Shown: piece by piece, positions 1,330-63,606 of the stretch | How positions within the stretch are numbered: position 1 is the first letter of the stretch | Layout: every line of letters begins with the position of its first letter | Source: Kiritimatiellia bacterium | GTDB lineage: Bacteria > Verrucomicrobiota > Kiritimatiellia > RFP12 > UBA1067 | Direction: 5' to 3' | Length of the DNA stretch: 64,000 bases | Assembly (NCBI GenBank): GCA_050949565.1 | Contig: JBMNFY010000017.1 | Location: 64,001 to 128,000 of the forward strand | Program-made: the position numbers and the translations under genes | The notes under the pieces: model-generated | The model's input: only the letters and a program-made list of their open reading frames with translations | The model's database searches: none | Told to the model about the DNA's origin: nothing

Positions 1330-1406
1330 TGGCAGGCCAGGAGGGACTCGAACCCCCAACGCCCGGTTTTGGAGACCGGTACTCTGCCAAATTGAGCTAC
1401 TGGCCT
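1330..1406 (-). tRNA. tRNA-Trp(CCA)
   Basis: AGGCCAG acceptor stem, anticodon arm CCGGT-CTCCAAA-ACCGG, GTTCGAG T-loop, encoded 3' CCA. Confidence 0.97.
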
Positions 1407-2921: not shown

Positions 2922-2997
<76 letters not shown>

Positions 2998-3314
2998 CCT
3001 ATCCATCGCCCCGCGCGGGGCAAAAAACCCCTTACCCAACATCCCCGACGGCTTTAAGCCAACCCATCGTGACATCGTGCAGGAGTCCATTAAACCTTGC
3101 CAATGTTTGTTTCCCGCTTCCCGAAGGCACAACTCCGGAAAAAAGAAAACCCGATTAGATTACTGAATGCCTCCGGGGATGTCAACACCGACGGGAAATT
3201 TTTTGCGAGGCTGTCAGGCTGTCAAATGTCACCCCAAAACCAGGACTTCCCCCAAAACCTCTTGCCTTGCCCCCATCCTTTCTCCATCATATGTTCACAA
3301 CAAGGGACACTGCC

Positions 3315-4686
3315 ATGAAGAAACGAAGCCGGAGCAGGATCCTCACTGCGTTGTTCATCGTGTTCGCAACGATGACCAACGCCGCTCCCACTGGGGTGAC
3401 GGTCAACGGCACCGCTCTCGACGATGCCGTCTCGTCCGGTGGCACGGGCTGGACGTATAACGCGCCTACACTCACGCTTTCCGGGGCAGAGCCCCTCACG
3501 CTCTCTGGCGCGAACACGGCGGGTAAGGTGCTCGTCGTCGTCTCGGCGGGCGCGACGAGCGCGGTCACGCTCTCGGATTTGACGCTCCAGACCACCGGCA
3601 GTGGCCAGTGCGTCTTCGAGTTGGAGCAGAATGCCGATATCTCGCTCTTCCTCGCGGGAACGAACACGCTCGCCTCGGGAAGAGACCACGCAGGCCTCGA
3701 AGTTCCCGCGAGCGCGTCGATCTCCATCACCAATGCGCCTAGCGATGCGGCAGGCGCACTGACGGTGACGGGCGGCACTATGGGCGCGGGCATCGGCGGC
3801 GGTTCTAAGGGCACGGGCGGCACGGTCACAATCTCCGGCGGCACGATCGCGGCTACGGGCGGCTTGTACGGCGCGGGCATTGGCGGCGGTTACTTACGTG
3901 CGGGCGGCACTGTGACCGTCCATGGCGGTACGGTCACAGCCACGGGCGGTATGTATGGCGCGGGCATTGGCGGTGGCCGCTCTGGTAACGGTGATGCTGT
4001 GACCATCACCGGCGGCACGGTCTTCGCGCGAGGCAACAACGGCAGTGCGGACATCGGGCCGGGCTTCAGTGGCACGGCTTCCGGCGCGAATATCTTTACC
4101 GGCGGCTCGGTCCGCCTCGCGAACGACAGCATCTCCCCCACGCCCACGGACAACGCTTTCCAAAACGGTGTCGGAACCGCAATGCAAACGCATCTCCCCC
4201 ACGCCCACGGACAACGCGACGCACGTTTGGTGCGTGACGGTAACGAACCTCACACCTAATGCGGCTATCGTCGTTACGGCGCTCGACCCCTACGGCGTCA
4301 GCGACCTCTTTGCCGATGAAAACGGCAAGCTCTACCTCTGGCTGCCGGACGGCGACTACACCTTCGTGGCGGGCAACGCCGGCTACACGGCTACCGTGGA
4401 CGGCGCGGCGACCACGGCGGTCGCCAACGGCCTTGTCGCGCCGCTCTTCGCCACGGACGGCACGGCGCTTGTCTTCGACGGCACGGCGCTCGCCATCAAG
4501 ATCACCAACGCCAAAAGCGGAATATGGTACGCGCTCTACAGGGTGAATACGCTCGGCGAGACCTGGGAACTGCTGCGGAGCGTCCACGCGACGACCGACG
4601 GCGACCTTGCCTTCACGGACATCGACGCGACAGCACCATACCGCTTCTTCAAGGTGAGGGCCAGCATCACTCAGCCCCTGCCATAG
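3315..4686 (+). pseudogene. Secreted Gly-rich beta-helix-like protein (GAGIGGG repeats), frameshifted by a 61-bp insertion
   Basis: Signal peptide MKKRSRSRILTALFIVFATMTNA; three GAGIGGG...GGTVT units; peptide ISPTPTDNA occurs in both ORF 3267..4259 and ORF 4045..4686; deleting 61 bp joins them in frame. Confidence 0.8.
4129..4217 (-). CRISPR. Candidate single-spacer ectopic ('neo') CRISPR unit: 28-bp repeat, 33-bp spacer, 28-bp repeat
   Basis: Perfect direct repeat GCATCTCCCCCACGCCCACGGACAACGC at 4129-4156 and 4190-4217; type I-E-like geometry; no cas genes in window. Confidence 0.55.
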
Positions 4687-4723
4687 GCTGGTGCTGGCGG
4701 AAACAAGAGGTAGTAAGTTGCCG

Positions 4724-5052
4724 AAGGAATCGAAAAATTCGAAGGATTCGATTCCGTCGATTCTCTCGATTCCATCCGTGCGCAGCACAAAAGGTGGCTC
4801 GCGGGGACACTCGCCCCCCAAAAAACCTGAAACCAAACTCTGCGTCTCTGCGTCTCTGCGTTAAATAAACCCGAACCATGAAACACATGAAACTTCATGA
4901 AAATTGAAGGCTTTCCTTTGCGTTCTCTGCGTTCTTTGCGGCTATTTACGTGGCCATGACTATTCGCGACAATTCGCATCATTCGCGGTTAAAACCCCGT
5001 CGCTATGCCCCCAAAAACCTCTGCGTAATCGTGTAATCTGTGGATGTTAAAA
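4724..5052. repeat. Intergenic mosaic of short tandem-triplet modules and a REP-like unit
   Basis: (CTCTGCGT)x3 at 4838-4861, CATGAAA x3, CT[TC]TGCG x3, ATTCGC x3, and GGCTCGCGGGGACACTCGCCC; related modules recur at 55.4-55.7 kb and 59.7-63.6 kb. Confidence 0.8.
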
Positions 5053-6651: not shown

Positions 6652-8895
6652 CTACCGCAGCGTCATCACCGAGCCGACCGGCGCAATGGTCAGTTTCGCG
6701 TAAGTGTCGGTCACGCGCACGAGAGCCGCATAGCCGACGGGGGCCGACGACGGCTTGGTTGCGTTCAGCAGCGCCTGGCGCGTTGCGGCATCAGCCGAAG
6801 CAAAGGTGAAGAGCGTTCCGTAGTAGGGATACACGACCCCTTGCGGCACGGTCAGCGTAACGGCACCCTCAACGGTCAGCGCTCCGGCAACGGCCAGCGA
6901 CGCGCTGTAGCACCCGCCGGTCTCGAACGTCACGGTGAGATCGCCGCTGACGGTCGCCGTGCCGGTCAATTCCGCGCCCGCGCAGATCACGATATTGGTG
7001 ATGCCGTCCAACACAGCACCATCCAGATCGAGCACACCGGCCTCGACGATCAGCGTGCCGTCCACCGCGAGTGTACCTGAGAGCGTCTGCACGGCCGTAC
7101 CGCTTTTGACAACAGTGCCAGCACCGCTGAATGAGCCGCTGAAGATCGCATCGTCAGTCGTGTGGATGCCGAACGTGCCGTTCGCAAGCAGTTCGATCGC
7201 ACCATCGCCGCTGAGCGAGCCGACCGTCTCGCTTGTGCCAGAGACTGCGAGCTTGCCCGGCGCCGCCACCGTGGTCGGCGAGAGATCGGAGAAGACATTC
7301 ATCGCGCTTTGCATGCCCTGCACCGACCACTGCCCGACCAACGTCTTACGCGCGGTCGTGATCAACGAGGTATCTGCGGAATAGTCTTGCGAGTCCACCA
7401 CCGTCCACGTCGTTCCGTCCGCACTGGTCTCGACGGTCCATGTGATCGCATCCCGTCCATCGGCATCGTTTGCGGTGTACCACGCATAACCGTTGAAGAA
7501 CACCGGAGTGGGGAACTCAAGCACCAACGGGTAGAGCGGCGACGCGGAACCATGATAAAACTTGGTGTCCACGCTGCCGTCGATCGCGTCTCCCGGCGGC
7601 TCTTTGCTGCTGGCAGTCTTGCCATAGCTTGTCGCCAGCGTGCCGACGGGATACGGCACATCGGCACCGCCCAAGGTGAGACGGAATTCGGAGAGTTGGT
7701 AGCCCGTATTGACATGGTCGCCTTCGGGACGCGTCGCGCTGGGCTTGAAGCGGACAAACTTGGTCAGAACCCCCGAGACCACCGTCGCCGTGCCGGCCTC
7801 GATCCGGGTTGCGCCGGTATAGGTACTGTCTGTGCCGGTGTAGTAGGTGTTCCCGGTGCCAGTCTGCGTGAGCCCCAGCGCGGAGACGCCGTCCTGCAAC
7901 GAACCGATAAACGTTTCCGCCCCAGCATTGGTCACGACCACCGACATCGGCAGAGCGCCGTCATTGCGAATCACAGTGTTGATACCCTTGGACATGATGT
8001 ACGGCATCGGCACCGTCCGTCGCCTGCAATGCGACCACGCCCTGACCTGAGGCCGTCCCCGCGAAAGCCGTCGTAATCCGTCAAAGTCACCACGCTGTTG
8101 TTCTCGGCGTGCAGCCGACCGGTCGCCGGAAAGCGCGCTGAACACGGCGTTGAAATTGTTGACCGCCAGCCGTCCGTCCTGTCCAATTACGACCGGCTGT
8201 TCAATCGACGTCCCTGCGCCGCCGAACCATTTATCGGTCAGATACGCCTCGACCGCCTGACGCTCTTCCACCGTCAACACGCGGTTATACACCAGCACCT
8301 CGCCGACATACCCGGCGAAGTAGCGGGCATATTGGGAACTGAACCAGTAGTCGCCGAGGGCCGCGCGGAACTCGCGGGTCGTGGAGCTGACGGCCGAGAG
8401 AATATGCAGCGGCTGGCTGGCGAATGAGTAACCCGCCACGCCATTGATCGCCATCTCGCCGTTGAAAGAGAAGTCATTCTGGTCCGCGCTGTTTCCGGTG
8501 TGCCGCCACGTGGTGGAAGAATTGAGGCGCACTCCATTCTTATCTTGGAACGATTCCCCCCAGAGGCCACCCAAGCTTACGTAACTGGTCATACGGTTGA
8601 CGATAAACACTGTACGGGCCTGTGCCGTCTTGCTGGCTTCCAGCCGCGTGCGCACCGCGCCGTCGCCGAACAGCACGGCCGGCTTACCGTTGATCGCGTT
8701 TTCCACCCATTTCGGTCGGTTCGCCGGGTTGGACTGCGTAAAATGGACACCCGCCCCGGACGCATCGTTCCACGCCGCAACAAAACCGTTGGACAGCGCA
8801 AAGGCGCTCGGCTCCGAGGCATCCAACCAATAAGAGAGTCCGTCCTTTAGCGGCACAGGCTTAGAGATGCGAAGCGTGCCCGCCTCCACCTGCAT
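6652..8895 (-). CDS. C-terminal part of a large secreted autotransporter-repeat protein (LamG-like and discoidin-like modules)
   Basis: WLDAS...VAAWNDASG...GYVGEVLVYNR; VKSGTAVQTLSG repeats; continuous with 9214..11883 across frameshifts; ends GSVMTLR without a beta-barrel. Confidence 0.75.
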   Translation of the reverse strand: MQVEAGTLRISKPVPLKDGLSYWLDASEPSAFALSNGFVAAWNDASGAGVHFTQSNPANRPKWVENAINGKPAVLFGDGAVRTRLEASKTAQARTVFIVNRMTSYVSLGGLWGESFQDKNGVRLNSSTTWRHTGNSADQNDFSFNGEMAINGVAGYSFASQPLHILSAVSSTTREFRAALGDYWFSSQYARYFAGYVGEVLVYNRVLTVEERQAVEAYLTDKWFGGAGTSIEQPVVIGQDGRLAVNNFNAVFSALSGDRSAARREQQRGDFDGLRRLSRGRPQVRAWSHCRRRTVPMPYIMSKGINTVIRNDGALPMSVVVTNAGAETFIGSLQDGVSALGLTQTGTGNTYYTGTDSTYTGATRIEAGTATVVSGVLTKFVRFKPSATRPEGDHVNTGYQLSEFRLTLGGADVPYPVGTLATSYGKTASSKEPPGDAIDGSVDTKFYHGSASPLYPLVLEFPTPVFFNGYAWYTANDADGRDAITWTVETSADGTTWTVVDSQDYSADTSLITTARKTLVGQWSVQGMQSAMNVFSDLSPTTVAAPGKLAVSGTSETVGSLSGDGAIELLANGTFGIHTTDDAIFSGSFSGAGTVVKSGTAVQTLSGTLAVDGTLIVEAGVLDLDGAVLDGITNIVICAGAELTGTATVSGDLTVTFETGGCYSASLAVAGALTVEGAVTLTVPQGVVYPYYGTLFTFASADAATRQALLNATKPSSAPVGYAALVRVTDTYAKLTIAPVGSVMTLR

Positions 8896-9213
8896 GCCGC
8901 CCGAATAGGCGATCGAAGCGATGGGGAAGGGAGAAGTCGCCGGTCCCGATCTTTGCCAGCGCGAGCGGTGGCCGGACCGTCACTGATCGTGCCGGTGAAC
9001 GCGGATGAGACGTTGCCGGCGCCGACCGTCAGCGTCGCCGCCTGCGCGCCGCTGTTCGTGACGCTGCCGCCGGCCAGCGTGTTGGTGAGCACGCCGAGCG
9101 TTTCAGCTCCGGCCGTTCAGGTCCAGCACGCCGCCCGACAGTGCCACGCCGCCGCCGATCTGGTTGCCGTGTGTCACCGGTCAGCACCACACGCGTGCCG
9201 GGCTCGGCACCGA

Positions 9214-12008: not shown

Positions 12009-14408
12009 ATGCAGGCTTTTGAAAAACTGGGAGTGTTTTATCTAGGTAAGCAGGTTGAGGCCGCATCGGGCGAAGCGAGCGACAATCTGCTCCTCTATGA
12101 TGCCAAAGACCTGACCACGCATGCGATGATGGTCGGCATGACCGGCAGCGGCAAGACCGGACTCGCGCTGGCCCTGCTGGAAGAGGCGGCGATCGACGGC
12201 ATCCCCGCCATCTTGATCGACCCGAAAGGCGACCTCAGTAATCTCATGCTGCAGTTTCCCGAACTGCGCCCCGAAGATTTCCGGCCGTGGGTGGATGAGG
12301 CCGAGGCGGCACGCAAAGGAATGTCGCCAGAGGCGTTCGCCGCCAAAACCGCTGAAACCTGGCGTAACGGCCTCGCACAGTGGGGCCAGGACGGCGAGCG
12401 CATCCGTCGCTTGCAGGCCTCGGCAGACTTCGCCATCTACACGCCGGGCAGCACAGCCGGACGCCCCCTGCAACTGCTGCGTTCGTTCGACGCCCCGCCA
12501 GCGGCCCTGCTGAATGACACCACCGCGCTGCGCGACCGCGTGATGTCGGCCGTCTCCGGACTGCTCGGCCTGCTCGGTATCGACGCCGACCCGGTTCAGA
12601 GCCGCGAGCACATCCTGCTCTCCAACATTCTCGACCGCGCCTGGCAGGACGGGCGGGACGTGGACTTGACGGCGCTGATTCAGGATATCCAGACACCGCC
12701 CTTCGACCATGTGGGCGTGTTTGCGCTGGAGTCCTTCTATCCCTCGAAGGACCGCTTCGCCCTCGCCATGCGCGTCAACAATCTGCTGGCCTCGCCGGGA
12801 TTCGCCGCCTGGATGACGGGCGAACCGCTCGATATCCAGCGACTGCTCCACACGCCGGACGGCAGGCCCCGCGTTTCGATCCTCTACCTCGCCCATCTCT
12901 CGGATGCCGAGCGGATGTTTTTCGTAACGTGCCTGCTCACCGAGGTGCTCGCATGGATGCGCACCCAGCCCGGCACCGGCAGCCTGCGGGCGCTGCTCTA
13001 CATGGATGAAATCTTCGGCTACTTCCCGCCGACCGCCAATCCGCCCTCCAAACTGCCGATGCTGACCCTGCTCAAACAGGCGCGTGCCTTCGGATTGGGC
13101 GTGGTGCTTTCCACACAGAATCCGGTCGATCTGGACTACAAGGGCTTGGCAAACTGCGGCACGTGGTTCATCGGACGGCTTCAGACCGAACGCGACAAAC
13201 AGCGCGTGATGGAAGGGCTCGAAGGCGCAGCCGCCAGCGCCGGCGACGGCTTTGACCGCAGTGCGATGGAACGCCTGCTGGCCAGCCTCGGCAACCGTGT
13301 CTTCCTGATGCACAACGTCCATGACGATGCCCCGGTGCTCTTTCAAACGCGTTGGGTCATGAGCTATCTGCGCGGACCGTTGACGTTGCCGCAGTTGGCC
13401 GACCTTCCCGGCAACACGTCTGCGCAAACCGCCCCACAGAAGCCTACCGCAACACAGCCCGCGCCACAATCGGACGCAACTCCTCAACCTGCCGCCGTTG
13501 CCCCGGTCGTGCCGCCCGACATTCCCGTTTTCCACTTACGCCCGCCGCAGACAGGGGATGGCGGCACGTATACGCCGACATTGGTGGCCACCTACAAGCT
13601 GCACTTTGTCGATGCCAAAGCCGCCGTCGATAAATGGATCAGCCGCACTTGGCTTGTGCCGTTCGCGGCGACGACCGGCGAACCGCTGTGGGACGAACCC
13701 GTGCTGTACGAAACGGCGGACCGCGACTTGGTTCGCGACACCCCCGCGCAGGCCCGTTATGCGGCACTGCCCGCGAGCGTGACGCGCCCCAAAGTCCTTG
13801 CAACCTGGACCCAATCGTTGGCAGCGGCGCTGTACCAGAACGCCACCCTCGACCTCCACGCCTATCCAGAACTCAAGATGGTGTCGCGCCCCGACGAGCC
13901 GCTCGGCGAATTCCGCGTCCGTGTCTGCCAGATACTCCGCGAACGTCATGACGAGCAGGTCGCCAAATTGAAGGCGAAATACGCACCCGCGCTGCGGACA
14001 CTCAACGATCAGATCCGCCGCGCCGAAGCCAAGGTCGAGCGCGAACGCGCGCAGTCCAGCCAGCGGAAAATGGACACGATGCTTTCGGTTGGCGCCACGC
14101 TCCTCAGCGCCTTTCTCGGGCGCGGGCGCTCGCAGATTGGCACGGTGGGCCGTGCGACAACCGCCATGAAGAGTGCCGGCCGCATCGGCAAAGAGCGCGC
14201 GGATGTCGCACATGCCGAAGAGAGTCTGGAAGTCTTGCAGCAGCGCATGCGTGATTTGGAACAGCAGTTCGAGACGGCAACCGCAGAGTTGAGCGCCGTG
14301 CCACATCCTGAGACGTTGCAGGTCGCGACACAGGCCATCCGTCCACGCAAATCCGATATCCTGATCGAGATACTGGGGTTATGCTGGGTACCGGACGGCA
14401 CGCTCTGA
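12009..14408 (+). CDS. HerA/FtsK-superfamily P-loop ATPase (DUF87/DUF853-like) with C-terminal coiled coil
   Basis: Walker A GMTGSGKT, IDPKGD, Walker B LYMDE, KQARAFG...STQNP. Confidence 0.85.
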   Translation: MQAFEKLGVFYLGKQVEAASGEASDNLLLYDAKDLTTHAMMVGMTGSGKTGLALALLEEAAIDGIPAILIDPKGDLSNLMLQFPELRPEDFRPWVDEAEAARKGMSPEAFAAKTAETWRNGLAQWGQDGERIRRLQASADFAIYTPGSTAGRPLQLLRSFDAPPAALLNDTTALRDRVMSAVSGLLGLLGIDADPVQSREHILLSNILDRAWQDGRDVDLTALIQDIQTPPFDHVGVFALESFYPSKDRFALAMRVNNLLASPGFAAWMTGEPLDIQRLLHTPDGRPRVSILYLAHLSDAERMFFVTCLLTEVLAWMRTQPGTGSLRALLYMDEIFGYFPPTANPPSKLPMLTLLKQARAFGLGVVLSTQNPVDLDYKGLANCGTWFIGRLQTERDKQRVMEGLEGAAASAGDGFDRSAMERLLASLGNRVFLMHNVHDDAPVLFQTRWVMSYLRGPLTLPQLADLPGNTSAQTAPQKPTATQPAPQSDATPQPAAVAPVVPPDIPVFHLRPPQTGDGGTYTPTLVATYKLHFVDAKAAVDKWISRTWLVPFAATTGEPLWDEPVLYETADRDLVRDTPAQARYAALPASVTRPKVLATWTQSLAAALYQNATLDLHAYPELKMVSRPDEPLGEFRVRVCQILRERHDEQVAKLKAKYAPALRTLNDQIRRAEAKVERERAQSSQRKMDTMLSVGATLLSAFLGRGRSQIGTVGRATTAMKSAGRIGKERADVAHAEESLEVLQQRMRDLEQQFETATAELSAVPHPETLQVATQAIRPRKSDILIEILGLCWVPDGTL

Positions 14409-63184: not shown

Positions 63185-63606
63185 TGCGGTGACAAGAGCC
63201 GCGCTACGCGCGGGGCGCGGCACCGCTTTCTTCCGCGCCACGCGCGGAAACACACTTAGTCCCCCACGCTTAGTCGGTCACACTTAGTCCTCCAAAAACT
63301 TAGTCGATTGCGCTAACGACGAAGTGTTTGGACGAAGTGTCGCGACGAAGTGCGGCTCGTGGGGACACTCGCCCTCCCGGCCCACTTGAACGTTGAGAGT
63401 TGAGCGTTGAGCGCTCGGAATTGAAGTGGCCCTTTCAGGGCACGCTGGCACGGGGCGACGATACCCAGGGCTGCGCTTCGCTTGCCCTGGGCTAAGGTGA
63501 AGCCGCCCCTTCGGGGCTACTCCCAAAAACCTCTGCGTCTCTGCGTTAAATAAACCCGAGCCATGCCACCCAAAAAACCTTCGTGCCCTTCGTGCTTTCG
63601 TGTGAG
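63185..63606. repeat. Direct repeat B copy 2 plus further REP-like hairpins and triplet modules
   Basis: GCCCTTTCAGGGC, CCCAGGGC...GCCCTGGG, GCCCCTTCGGGGC; CTCTGCGTCTCTGCGTTAAATAAACCCGA as at 4846-4874. Confidence 0.8.

What the first reader, a model, noticed from the sequence alone, without database searches (positions are those of the whole stretch)
4129..4217. Apparent natural off-target Cas1-Cas2 spacer integration ('neo-CRISPR') that knocks out a surface-protein gene
Seen: an exact 28-bp direct repeat (4129-4156, 4190-4217; flanking bases differ, so exactly 28) encloses a unique 33-bp insert TTTCCAAAACGGTGTCGGAACCGCAATGCAAAC. The net +61 bp frameshifts the gene, and removing it restores ...ANDSISPTPTDNATHVWCV.... 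On the minus strand the repeat reads GCGTTGTCCGTGGGCGTGGGGGAGATGC, matching the E. coli type I-E repeat GTGTTCCCCGCGCCAGCGGGGATAAACC at 15/28 ungapped positions, and the insert starts with G. Established: type I-E Cas1-Cas2 duplicates 28 bp and inserts 33 bp whose first base is the G of the AAG PAM; off-target integration at repeat-like sites has been shown experimentally in E. coli (Nivala, Shipman and Church 2018). Inference: this is such an event fixed in a natural genome, acting as an insertional mutagen and possibly seeding a new array.
Basis: partly seen in the sequence, partly recalled or inferred. Interest (0 to 1): 0.9.

Follow-up and report, generated by a model that had tools for sequence, protein, structure and literature searches.

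The report
Stray CRISPR spacer breaks a gene
A bacterium's own CRISPR memory-writing enzymes appear to have pasted one 33-base foreign spacer into a surface-protein gene instead of the CRISPR array, duplicating 28 bases and breaking the gene: a rare, clean natural example of a known laboratory phenomenon.

Summary
An exact 28-bp direct repeat (4129-4156, 4190-4217) encloses a unique 33-bp insert (4157-4189). The +61 bp frameshifts a signal-peptide/beta-helix-repeat gene.

- It carries a complete type I-E operon with intact cas1e and cas2e.
- Its array has 28-bp repeats and 33-nt spacers in 74 of 77 units, and 68 of those 74 spacers start with G.
- On the minus strand the insert starts with G.
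- In that same orientation the duplicated 28-mer matches the genome's own repeat at 16/28 positions in register. Only 5e-4 of genomic 28-mers do as well.
- The match includes the whole IR2 arm CGTGGGG, so the ruler-anchor motif ends exactly 8 nt before the junction, as in the E. coli I-E ruler model.

A same-genus ortholog and paralogs lack exactly these 61 bp. The insertion allele occurs in two independent metagenome contigs and in contigs from three further DNA studies, so it is real and fixed.

Not shown:
- The protospacer and its PAM: the 33-mer has no other match.
- Any function as a new array: the neo-repeat lacks the Cas6e hairpin, there is no leader or promoter, and there is only one spacer.

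Verdict: a natural off-target I-E spacer integration and a mutagenic scar. It is a new member of a known kind.

The parts
4190..4217 (-). Copy 1 of the duplicated target, the 'neo-repeat'. Read on the minus strand it is the copy that precedes the spacer: GCGTTGTCCGTGGGCGTGGGGGAGATGC. The IR2-like arm CGTGGGG lies at 4197-4203.
   Evidence: Exact 28-nt direct repeat. It is 16/28 identical in register to the native I-E repeat CTTTTCCCCACGCACGTGGGGATGATCC, including positions 15-21.
4157..4189 (-). 33-nt spacer-like insert. On the minus strand it reads GTTTGCATTGCGGTTCCGACACCGTTTTGGAAA, so G comes first. It is of foreign or unknown origin.
   Evidence: It occurs once in the genome. Its GC content is 48% against about 60% for the genome. 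It has the same length as 74 of 77 native spacers and the same first base as 68 of 74. It is absent from the ortholog and homologs.
4129..4156 (-). Copy 2 of the duplicated target. Read on the minus strand it is the copy that follows the spacer. The IR2-like arm lies at 4136-4142.
   Evidence: 100% identical to 4190-4217. A single copy of this site is present in the G002 ortholog and the G004 homolog.
3315..4259 (+). The broken gene, N-terminal part: signal-peptide-like start MKKRSRSRILTALFIVFA..., then beta-helix repeats (Pfam PF18889), then about 34 out-of-frame codons and a premature stop at 4257-4259.
   Evidence: Translation. Pfam Beta_helix_3 at 28.5 bits against a cut-off of 27; the intact ortholog scores 44.9 bits.
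4190..4686 (+). The displaced C-terminal remainder of the same gene, still open in the other frame (ISPTPTDNATHVWCVTVTNL...ITQPLP*).
   Evidence: Translation. It is colinear with the C-terminal part of the intact 453-aa ortholog. It is 88% identical to the relative's protein.

Best explanation
The 61 extra bases are the product of one full-site spacer integration by this bacterium's own type I-E Cas1-Cas2 integrase at an off-target site inside a protein-coding gene. The organism is an uncultivated Kiritimatiellia/Verrucomicrobia-type lineage.

Inferred mechanism: Cas1-Cas2 loaded with a 33-nt prespacer, whose first base G is the last PAM base, docked on a repeat-like 28-bp stretch of the gene. 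That stretch carries the leader-distal inverted-repeat arm CGTGGGG in exactly the position it has in the native repeat. The two transesterifications were made 28 bp apart, with the distal one 8 nt beyond the GTGGG anchor. Gap repair then duplicated the 28 bp on both sides of the spacer.

What is shown: the product geometry, the resident machinery, the repeat-likeness in register, the empty site in relatives, and the presence of the allele in independent assemblies.

What is inferred: the enzyme that did it, the foreign origin of the spacer, and the order of events.

Consequence: a +61 frameshift truncates a secreted beta-helix-repeat protein that has many paralogs in the genome. The unit is most likely an inert scar and not a working mini-array.
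For: (1) Geometry. The duplication is exactly 28 bp and the insert exactly 33 bp. The native array at G000:C10:2-4788 has period 61 in 69 of 72 spacings. In it, 73 of 77 detected repeats are the identical 28-mer, 74 of 77 spacers are 33 nt, and 68 of those 74 start with G. The genome's other array (C8, 33-nt repeat, period 65-68, I-C-like) does not fit this geometry.

(2) Machinery. A complete I-E operon lies on G000:C6: cas3, cse1, cse2, cas6e, cas7e, cas5e, cas1e and cas2e, all above the NCBIfam cut-offs except the full-length cas3 models. The leader and first repeat sit at the end of that contig. Cas1e aligns over its full length to solved I-E Cas1 structures (E 1e-59 to 1.5e-55). The E, H and D residues of the conserved motifs are identical in the printed alignment.

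(3) Orientation concordance. The insert starts with G only on the minus strand. On that same strand the 28-mer matches the native repeat at 16/28 positions in register, against 12/28 on the plus strand. Only 4,715 of 9,317,900 genomic 28-mers (5.1e-4, true repeats included) reach 16 or more.

(4) Anchor in register. Positions 15-21 (CGTGGGG, the IR2 arm) are identical. The composition-based per-site probability of this is 1.5e-4, and the genome has 876 such sites including about 80 true repeats. In E. coli I-E, the spacer is inserted 8 nt downstream of the end of the IR2 motif 'GCGGG' (Goren et al. 2016, PMC5039180, passages read). Here GTGGG ends at position 20 and the junction is at position 28.

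(5) Empty site. The same-genus G002 ortholog (86-91% nucleotide identity, intact 453-aa ORF), the G004 homolog and an own-genome paralog on C1 all lack exactly the 61 bp.

(6) Not an artefact. The identical insertion is in two metagenome contigs: L004, which differs from the window at 91 aligned positions over about 6.4 kb, and L005, which has 3 mismatches over 5.5 kb. Contigs from three DNA runs of three studies span it with 0 differences: X7 record 23, X10 record 5 and X13 record 9.

(7) Uniqueness. It is the only 28/61 event among 67 isolated direct repeats. No degenerate older copies were found.

(8) Precedent. Off-target integration at repeat-like sites is documented for E. coli in vivo (Nivala 2018, seen only as cited). 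It is also documented for P. furiosus in vitro, at a site 43% identical to the repeat (PMC6698737, passages).
Against: No protospacer was found. The 33-mer has no exact match in viral contigs or genome contigs. It has nothing significant in phages or plasmids (best E about 3-4). Its only metagenome matches are the same insertion. The foreign origin and the PAM therefore remain untested.

The site is not the best off-target candidate in the genome. Among sites with the exact IR2 7-mer, about 120 non-array sites match the repeat as well or better, so why this site was hit is unexplained.

The IR1 arm is poorly conserved (3 of 7 positions), and in E. coli IR1 is reported to be important for efficiency.

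The flank shows no leader-like sequence: 7 of 20 identities to the native leader end, and no IHF-consensus hit of 7/9 or better, although the native leader has none either.

All DNA runs laid are flagged as possible sources of the window, so at most one of them may not be independent.
Confidence: 0.88

Rival explanations
1. A repair-mediated event unrelated to CRISPR. A double-strand break or template switch duplicated 28 bp and captured 33 bp of filler DNA, as in end-joining or microhomology-mediated insertion.
For: An A-B-A structure with a unique filler can in principle arise by break repair. No protospacer or PAM could be found to tie the insert to adaptation.
Against: This model gives no reason for several coincidences at once. 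The duplication equals the native repeat length and the filler equals the native spacer length. The filler starts with G in the same orientation in which the target matches the native repeat 16/28 (p about 5e-4) and carries the IR2 arm in register (p about 1.5e-4). The filler has no source anywhere in the genome; the best other match is 14 nt. No other such event exists in the genome.
Confidence: 0.05
2. An insertion or footprint of an unknown mobile element or site-specific integrase that makes a 28-bp target-site duplication.
For: Direct repeats flanking an insert are the classic mark of transposition.
Against: The insert is only 33 bp and has no terminal inverted repeats (none is listed in 4157-4189). 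It encodes nothing. It is single-copy in the genome. It occurs nowhere else in the viral, phage, plasmid, genome or metagenome collections searched, apart from this same locus. From my own recall, not from a call: no transposon family is known to make a 28-bp duplication.
Confidence: 0.03
3. The integration product is a working mini-CRISPR (neo-CRISPR locus) that yields a crRNA and can grow by further acquisition.
For: The unit has the repeat-spacer-repeat layout. An RNA-library contig (X15 record 20, positions 4071-4376, 0 differences) covers it, so the region may be transcribed. Neo-CRISPR genesis was proposed by Nivala et al. 2018, seen as cited.
Against: The native repeat folds into a 7-bp stem with a 4-nt loop (-12.8 kcal/mol, z -3.55). 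The neo-repeat folds differently and no better than shuffles (-7.0 kcal/mol, z -0.48), so Cas6e recognition is unlikely. There is no promoter-like site on the minus strand upstream and no leader similarity. Every assembly seen carries one spacer only. RNA contigs give neither strand nor ends, and DNA carry-over is possible.
Confidence: 0.04
4. An assembly or sequencing artefact.
For: The window comes from a metagenome-type assembly of 21 contigs.
Against: The same junctions are present in two separately deposited metagenome contigs that carry their own SNPs. They are also in contigs of runs from three studies. All sampled words of the stretch are held by 14 DNA runs of 10 studies.
Confidence: 0.005

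Closest known systems
Off-target ('non-canonical') Cas1-Cas2 spacer integration and neo-CRISPR loci in E. coli type I-E (Nivala, Shipman & Church 2018, Nat Microbiol)
   Same: The subtype is the same (I-E) and so is the product: a repeat-length duplication around a spacer-length insert at a chromosomal site that resembles the repeat. Both are proposed as a mutagenic cost and a possible route to new arrays.
   Different: The E. coli events were obtained with overproduced Cas1-Cas2 and supplied oligonucleotides (as described in PMC7054753 and PMC11788318). Here the event is natural, sits in an uncultivated anaerobic-digester/landfill bacterium, lies inside a gene, and is fixed across several populations. 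I could not read the 2018 paper itself; it is not held. Its site-preference data could therefore not be compared with this site.
Putative natural off-target integrations reported by the same paper in two other species
   Same: These are natural genomes with repeat-spacer-repeat units outside canonical arrays.
   Different: A citing preprint describes that evidence as 'circumstantial' (10.1101/148544, passage). From recall only, not from any call, the two species are Yersinia pestis and Sulfolobus islandicus. The present case adds an empty-site ortholog, an in-register anchor motif, concordance of the G-first orientation, and the disruption of a gene.
In vitro off-target full-site integration by Pyrococcus furiosus Cas1-Cas2 (PMC6698737)
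   Same: Paired integration sites lie a repeat length apart at non-CRISPR DNA that shares positionally conserved bases with the repeat. The preferred site there is 43% identical to the repeat; the site here is 57% identical.
   Different: That work used an archaeal system with 30-bp spacing, in vitro on plasmids, with no orientation preference reported.
Two-ruler model of repeat-size determination in type I-E (Goren et al. 2016, PMC5039180)
   Same: The IR2 motif acts as an anchor, and the junction lies 8 nt beyond its end. Here GTGGG occupies positions 16-20 and the junction follows position 28.
   Different: The model was derived from mutated E. coli repeats next to a leader. Here IR1 is largely absent (3 of 7 positions) and there is no leader.
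Isolated or orphan mini-arrays attributed in part to off-target acquisition (Shmakov et al. 2020, CRISPR J)
   Same: One proposed origin of arrays located away from cas genes is off-target spacer acquisition (stated in PMC13142298, passage).
   Different: That paper is not held, so I could not check whether intragenic, gene-disrupting cases with an empty-site ortholog are described there.

Membership tests
Product of type I-E Cas1-Cas2 full-site spacer integration | The target duplication equals the repeat length of the resident I-E system | tested here: met
   The duplication is 28 bp exactly. The native repeat is 28 bp once the invariant following G is assigned to the spacer, and 73 of 77 repeats are identical.
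Product of type I-E Cas1-Cas2 full-site spacer integration | The insert length equals the resident spacer length | tested here: met
   The insert is 33 bp. Native spacers are 33 nt in 74 of 77 units, and the array period is 61 in 69 of 72 spacings.
Product of type I-E Cas1-Cas2 full-site spacer integration | The first spacer base is the PAM-derived G, in the orientation defined by the repeat | tested here: met
   The minus-strand insert starts with G, as do 68 of 74 native 33-mers. The repeat-like orientation is the same minus strand: 16/28 against 12/28.
Product of type I-E Cas1-Cas2 full-site spacer integration | Intact resident cas1e and cas2e | tested here: met
   TIGR03638 Cas1e scores 315.5 bits (cut-off 215.6) and TIGR01873 Cas2e scores 61.4 bits (cut-off 33.15). 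Both ORFs are uninterrupted. Cas1e aligns over its full length to solved I-E Cas1 structures.
Product of type I-E Cas1-Cas2 full-site spacer integration | The target resembles the repeat, with the IR2 ruler anchor 8 nt from the repeat-spacer junction | tested here: met
   CGTGGGG is identical at positions 15-21, so GTGGG ends at position 20 and the junction follows position 28. The ruler distance comes from PMC5039180. In-register identity of 16 or more is reached by 5.1e-4 of genomic 28-mers.
Product of type I-E Cas1-Cas2 full-site spacer integration | The spacer derives from a protospacer flanked by the system's PAM (AAG-type) | tested here: inconclusive
   No protospacer was found in the viral, phage, plasmid, genome or metagenome collections or in the organism's own genome. 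No native spacer has a usable self-match from which to define the PAM. The array also has no phage match.
Product of type I-E Cas1-Cas2 full-site spacer integration | An ancestral empty site exists | tested here: met
   The G002 ortholog and the G004 homolog lack exactly the 61 bp and carry one copy of the site. The G002 ORF is intact at 453 aa.
Product of type I-E Cas1-Cas2 full-site spacer integration | A leader or IHF-type site lies next to the integration site (needed for canonical integration, not for off-target integration) | tested here: not met
   The flank shares 7 of 20 identities with the native leader end. No IHF-consensus match of 7/9 or better was found in the flank, and none in the native leader either.
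Functional CRISPR array (neo-CRISPR locus) | The repeat RNA forms the Cas6e stem-loop | tested here: not met
   The native repeat folds at -12.8 kcal/mol with a 7-bp stem (z -3.55). The neo-repeat folds at -7.0 kcal/mol in a different shape (z -0.48).
Functional CRISPR array (neo-CRISPR locus) | A leader or promoter drives transcription in the sense orientation | tested here: not met
   No sigma-70-like site lies on the minus strand upstream of 4217 within the scanned stretch 3000-5000. This is a consensus scan only.
Functional CRISPR array (neo-CRISPR locus) | A processed crRNA, or further spacer acquisition | not testable with these tools
   Only contigs of RNA runs are available, and they give no strand or ends. 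All assemblies seen have a single spacer.
Transposable element insertion with target-site duplication | Terminal inverted repeats, coding capacity or multiple copies of the inserted element | tested here: not met
   No inverted repeat lies within 4157-4189. The insert is 33 bp and single-copy in the genome. It is absent elsewhere in the collections searched.

The most novel reading that the evidence does not exclude
The stray integration was more than a tolerated accident. By knocking out a secreted beta-helix surface protein, perhaps a phage receptor or another costly antigen, the CRISPR adaptation machinery acted as a natural insertional mutagen. The resulting knock-out was then selected and swept through a widely dispersed population. 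The allele is the only form seen in biogas, landfill, sludge and other metagenomes from several studies, and it is shared by haplotypes that differ at nearby SNPs.
Probability: 0.1. Interest if true: 0.8.

Novelty: new member of a known kind. Interest (0 to 1): 0.6.

Why it matters
Off-target spacer integration has been shown mainly under Cas1-Cas2 overproduction in E. coli and in vitro. Natural examples have been called circumstantial (10.1101/148544).

This locus is an unusually clean natural case. It combines:
- the resident I-E system;
- exact 28+33 geometry;
- a PAM-derived G;
- an in-register ruler anchor;
- an empty-site ortholog;
- fixation in several independent metagenomes.

It shows three things.
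- CRISPR adaptation carries a real mutagenic cost in wild populations.
- The IR2-anchored ruler seen in E. coli appears to operate in a distant lineage even without a leader or an intact IR1.
- Such scars can be found by a simple genome-wide search for A-B-A structures with the host's own repeat and spacer lengths. That makes the natural rate of off-target integration measurable.

It gives no evidence that new functional arrays are born this way.

Tried and rejected
Protospacer search. The exact 33-mer has 0 hits in viral contigs and 0 in genome contigs. Its 2 hits in metagenome contigs are both the same insertion. Blastn against phages and plasmids gave only chance-level partial hits at E 3-4. 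In the organism's own genome the best other match is 14 nt. It shows no similarity to native I-E spacers. The PAM could therefore not be tested. Searches allowing mismatches in the large collections were not possible.

PAM of the native system. Native I-E spacers have no convincing self-protospacers. The whole array has no megablast hit in phages.

IHF and leader likeness. No consensus hit of 7/9 or better was found in either the neo-site flanks or the native leader, so this test is uninformative.

Other events. No second 28/61 event and no I-C-sized event exists among exact repeats. A relaxed scan (at least 24 of 28 matches, periods 60-62) found only simple tandem repeats and REP-like palindromes.

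Empty allele within the species. No contig joining across the 61 bp was listed in the four runs laid (table 5). Contigs drop rare variants, so this says nothing about minority alleles. RNA-library contig coverage of the locus (X15) shows neither strand nor ends, nor even that the source was RNA and not carried-over DNA.

The genome's own repeat is the relevant reference.

Papers. Nivala et al. 2018 and Shmakov et al. 2020 are not held. What I say of them comes from passages in citing papers or from recall, and is marked so. Supplementary files were not consulted.

Full report
**1. The observation**

The window shows an exact 28-nt direct repeat at 4129-4156 and 4190-4217, GCATCTCCCCCACGCCCACGGACAACGC. 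It encloses the 33-nt sequence TTTCCAAAACGGTGTCGGAACCGCAATGCAAAC at 4157-4189.

The bases just outside the two copies differ on both sides: A versus C before, T versus G after. The structure is therefore exactly 28 + 33 + 28.

The window is G000:C17:64001-128000, in a 4.66-Mb assembly of 21 contigs at about 60% GC. In that genome the 28-mer occurs only at these two places and the 33-mer once.

The gene starts at the ATG at 3315 (MKKRSRSRIL..., signal-peptide-like). It carries beta-helix repeats (Pfam PF18889). After the first repeat copy it runs through the insert out of frame to a stop at 4257-4259. The rest of the protein is still open in another frame up to 4686.

**2. What the genome says about CRISPR**

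Cas1 (PF01867) hits two loci.

The first, on C8, lies next to an array with a 33-nt repeat and periods of 65-68. This is I-C-like and does not fit the event.

The second, on C6, is a complete type I-E operon: cas3, cse1, a HEAT-repeat ORF, cse2, cas6e, cas7e, cas5e, cas1e (315.5 bits, cut-off 215.6) and cas2e (61.4 bits, cut-off 33.15). An RNase_H_2-superfamily ORF follows, then a leader and the first repeat at the very end of the contig.

Contig C10 starts inside the matching array. A core-pattern search found 77 repeats, of which 73 are the identical 28-mer CTTTTCCCCACGCACGTGGGGATGATCC. The last four repeats are degenerate, which marks the trailer end. Of the 77 spacers, 74 are 33 nt, and 68 of those 74 begin with G. 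The period is 61 in 69 of 72 spacings.

Cas1e aligns over its full length with solved I-E Cas1 structures (E 1e-59 to 1.5e-55), and the conserved acidic and histidine motif residues are identical in the printed alignment. That these are the catalytic residues is my recall.

Cas1e above the cut-off is found in 5 of 26 genomes searched in the clade, G000 included.

**3. The fit between the event and the machinery**

The insert begins with G only when read on the minus strand. On that strand the duplicated 28-mer reads GCGTTGTCCGTGGGCGTGGGGGAGATGC.

It matches the native repeat at 16 of 28 positions without gaps and in register: positions 4, 5, 8, 9, 12, 15-21, 24-26 and 28. The plus strand matches at 12 of 28. 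Over all 9,317,900 28-mers of both strands of the genome, 4,715 (5.1e-4) reach 16 or more, and about 80 of those are true repeats.

The identical block 15-21 is CGTGGGG, the leader-distal arm of the repeat's inverted repeat (IR2). Its composition-based probability at a fixed position is 1.5e-4. The genome holds 876 such sites in all.

Goren et al. 2016 showed for E. coli I-E that a motif in IR2 ('GCGGG') anchors a ruler, so that the spacer is inserted 8 nt beyond the motif's end. A motif in IR1 anchors a second ruler at 16 nt (PMC5039180; passages from the summary, results and discussion read). Here the equivalent GTGGG occupies positions 16-20 and the repeat-spacer junction follows position 28, which is exactly 8 nt.

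Three independent features point to the same enzyme and the same orientation:
- the lengths 28 and 33;
- the G-first end;
- the in-register likeness to the repeat, with the anchor in place.

IR1 is only 3/7 conserved. The flank has no leader likeness, with 7 of 20 identities to the native leader end. No IHF-consensus match of 7/9 or better was found, and the native leader has none either. This is what one expects of an off-target event and not of a canonical one.

**4. The event is an insertion, and it is real**

A search of 41 related genomes found the ortholog in a same-genus genome, G002, at 86-91% nucleotide identity.

In the alignment, G002 and a G004 homolog lack exactly the 61 bases and carry a single copy of the site. 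The G002 gene is an intact 453-aa ORF, colinear with both halves of the window's gene. A paralog on the organism's own C1 also aligns across the site without the insert.

The exact 33-mer was found in two metagenome contigs, and both carry the same insertion in the same gene. L005 differs from the window at 3 of 5,511 positions. L004 differs at 91 aligned positions over about 6.4 kb, mostly clustered at 8000-9000, with two SNPs inside the gene. The allele is therefore shared by distinguishable haplotypes.

The 451-base stretch around the site is held completely by 14 DNA runs of 10 coded studies, from biogas, bioreactor, landfill, sludge, aquatic and other metagenomes. Any one of them may be the window's source.

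In the four runs laid, contigs with 0 differences span the insertion in three DNA runs of three studies: X7 record 23, X10 record 5 and X13 record 9. One RNA-library contig also spans it: X15 record 20.

**5. Uniqueness**

A scan of the genome for exact direct repeats of at least 18 nt at periods 30-120 gave 777 raw hits and 67 isolated ones. This is the only isolated one with length 28 and period 61, and none has the I-C geometry. The others are REP-like palindromes, protein repeats and simple repeats. A relaxed scan (at least 24 of 28 matches, periods 60-62) found no older, decayed events.

**6. What is not shown**

The source of the spacer is unknown. There are no matches in viral contigs, genome contigs, phages or plasmids, and no second place in metagenome contigs or in the genome. 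Its GC content of 48%, against about 60% for the genome, fits a foreign origin but proves nothing. The PAM could not be checked.

The site is also not the genome's best mimic of the repeat. About 120 non-array sites with the exact IR2 7-mer match the repeat as well or better.

**7. Is it a new array?**

Probably not.
- The native repeat RNA folds into a 7-bp stem with a 4-nt loop (-12.8 kcal/mol, z -3.55). The neo-repeat folds no better than shuffles and into another shape (-7.0 kcal/mol, z -0.48).
- No promoter-like site lies upstream on the minus strand.
- Every assembly carries a single spacer.

The unit is best read as a scar.

**8. Comparison with what is known**

Off-target integration by I-E Cas1-Cas2 into the E. 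coli chromosome, and the idea of neo-CRISPR loci, come from Nivala et al. 2018. I could not read that paper.

Citing papers say three things about it:
- It used overproduced Cas1-Cas2 and supplied oligonucleotides (PMC7054753, PMC11788318).
- IHF-like motifs favoured such events (PMC9456107).
- It gave 'circumstantial evidence' for two other species (10.1101/148544).

P. furiosus Cas1-Cas2 integrates in vitro at non-CRISPR sites that are a repeat length apart and 43% identical to the repeat (PMC6698737). Off-target acquisition is also one of three proposed origins of isolated arrays (PMC13142298, citing Shmakov et al. 2020). The 2020 paper itself is not held.

The present case therefore belongs to a known kind. 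It is a particularly well-documented natural member, and it shows gene disruption and fixation.

**9. Verdict**

This is a natural off-target spacer integration by the resident type I-E Cas1-Cas2, at confidence about 0.88.
- Interest is moderate to high (0.6). It is a textbook-quality natural example, and it offers a handle for measuring the mutagenic cost of adaptation and for testing the ruler model outside E. coli. It is not a new mechanism.
- The boldest reading not excluded is that the knock-out itself was selected and swept. I put that at about 0.1.

Noticed in passing
G000:C6:206027-206986 (L016 8028-8987, + strand): A 319-aa HEAT-repeat ORF (Pfam HEAT_2, 3.3e-11; no NCBIfam hit) sits between cse1 and cse2 inside the type I-E operon. 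That is an unusual extra gene for this operon.
   Followed up: partly
G000:C6:~211109-211840 (L016 ~13110-13841, + strand): An RNase_H_2-superfamily ORF (PF13482, 9.2e-30; weak RecB-like TM0106 hit) lies between cas2e and the leader and first repeat. It may be a stand-alone exonuclease for prespacer trimming, analogous to Cas2-DnaQ fusions; that analogy is recalled and untested.
   Followed up: partly
G000:C8:396817-403700: There is a second CRISPR-Cas locus with a strong Cas1 hit (347 bits) and an array of about 80 units. The repeat is 33 nt (GTCGCGCCCCATGCGGGGCGCGTGAATTGAAAC) and the periods are 65-68. It looks I-C-like by repeat and period, but the subtype was not tested.
   Followed up: partly
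Whole genome, e.g. G000:C10:41203, C1:113314, C17:919220, C17:994316: There are many REP-like palindromic intergenic repeats, in families such as TGGAGGGCGAGTGTCCCCACGAGCCGCC and CATGGGCGGGACGCCCATGCCAC. They account for most of the isolated short direct repeats. Some contain CGTGGGG and so inflate the list of repeat-like sites.
   Followed up: no
G000:C1:96000-108300, C4:61000-63200, C1:24850-25790: The broken gene belongs to a large paralogous family of beta-helix-repeat proteins arranged in clusters. A related genome (G029) has dozens of matches. Redundancy may explain why the knock-out is tolerated.
   Followed up: no
window 8000-9000: Of the 91 differences between metagenome contig L004 and the window, 83 fall within this 1 kb, while the remaining roughly 5.4 kb is almost identical. 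This suggests a recombined or hypervariable segment inside the long minus-strand ORF 6652-8895.
   Followed up: no
window 63464-63518 (+): An Rfam Acido-Lenti-1 sRNA motif scores just above its gathering score (37.7 against 37 bits).
   Followed up: no
window 1330-1406 (-) and 2922-2997 (-): tRNA-Trp(cca) and tRNA-Thr(ggt) genes lie upstream of the broken gene.
   Followed up: no
G000:C15:16564-17305: A tandem array with a 45-nt period (about 17 units, TTTTAACGCAGAGACGCAGAGACGCAGAGGTTGTGGGTTGTGGGG) has no unique spacers, so it is not a CRISPR array.
   Followed up: no
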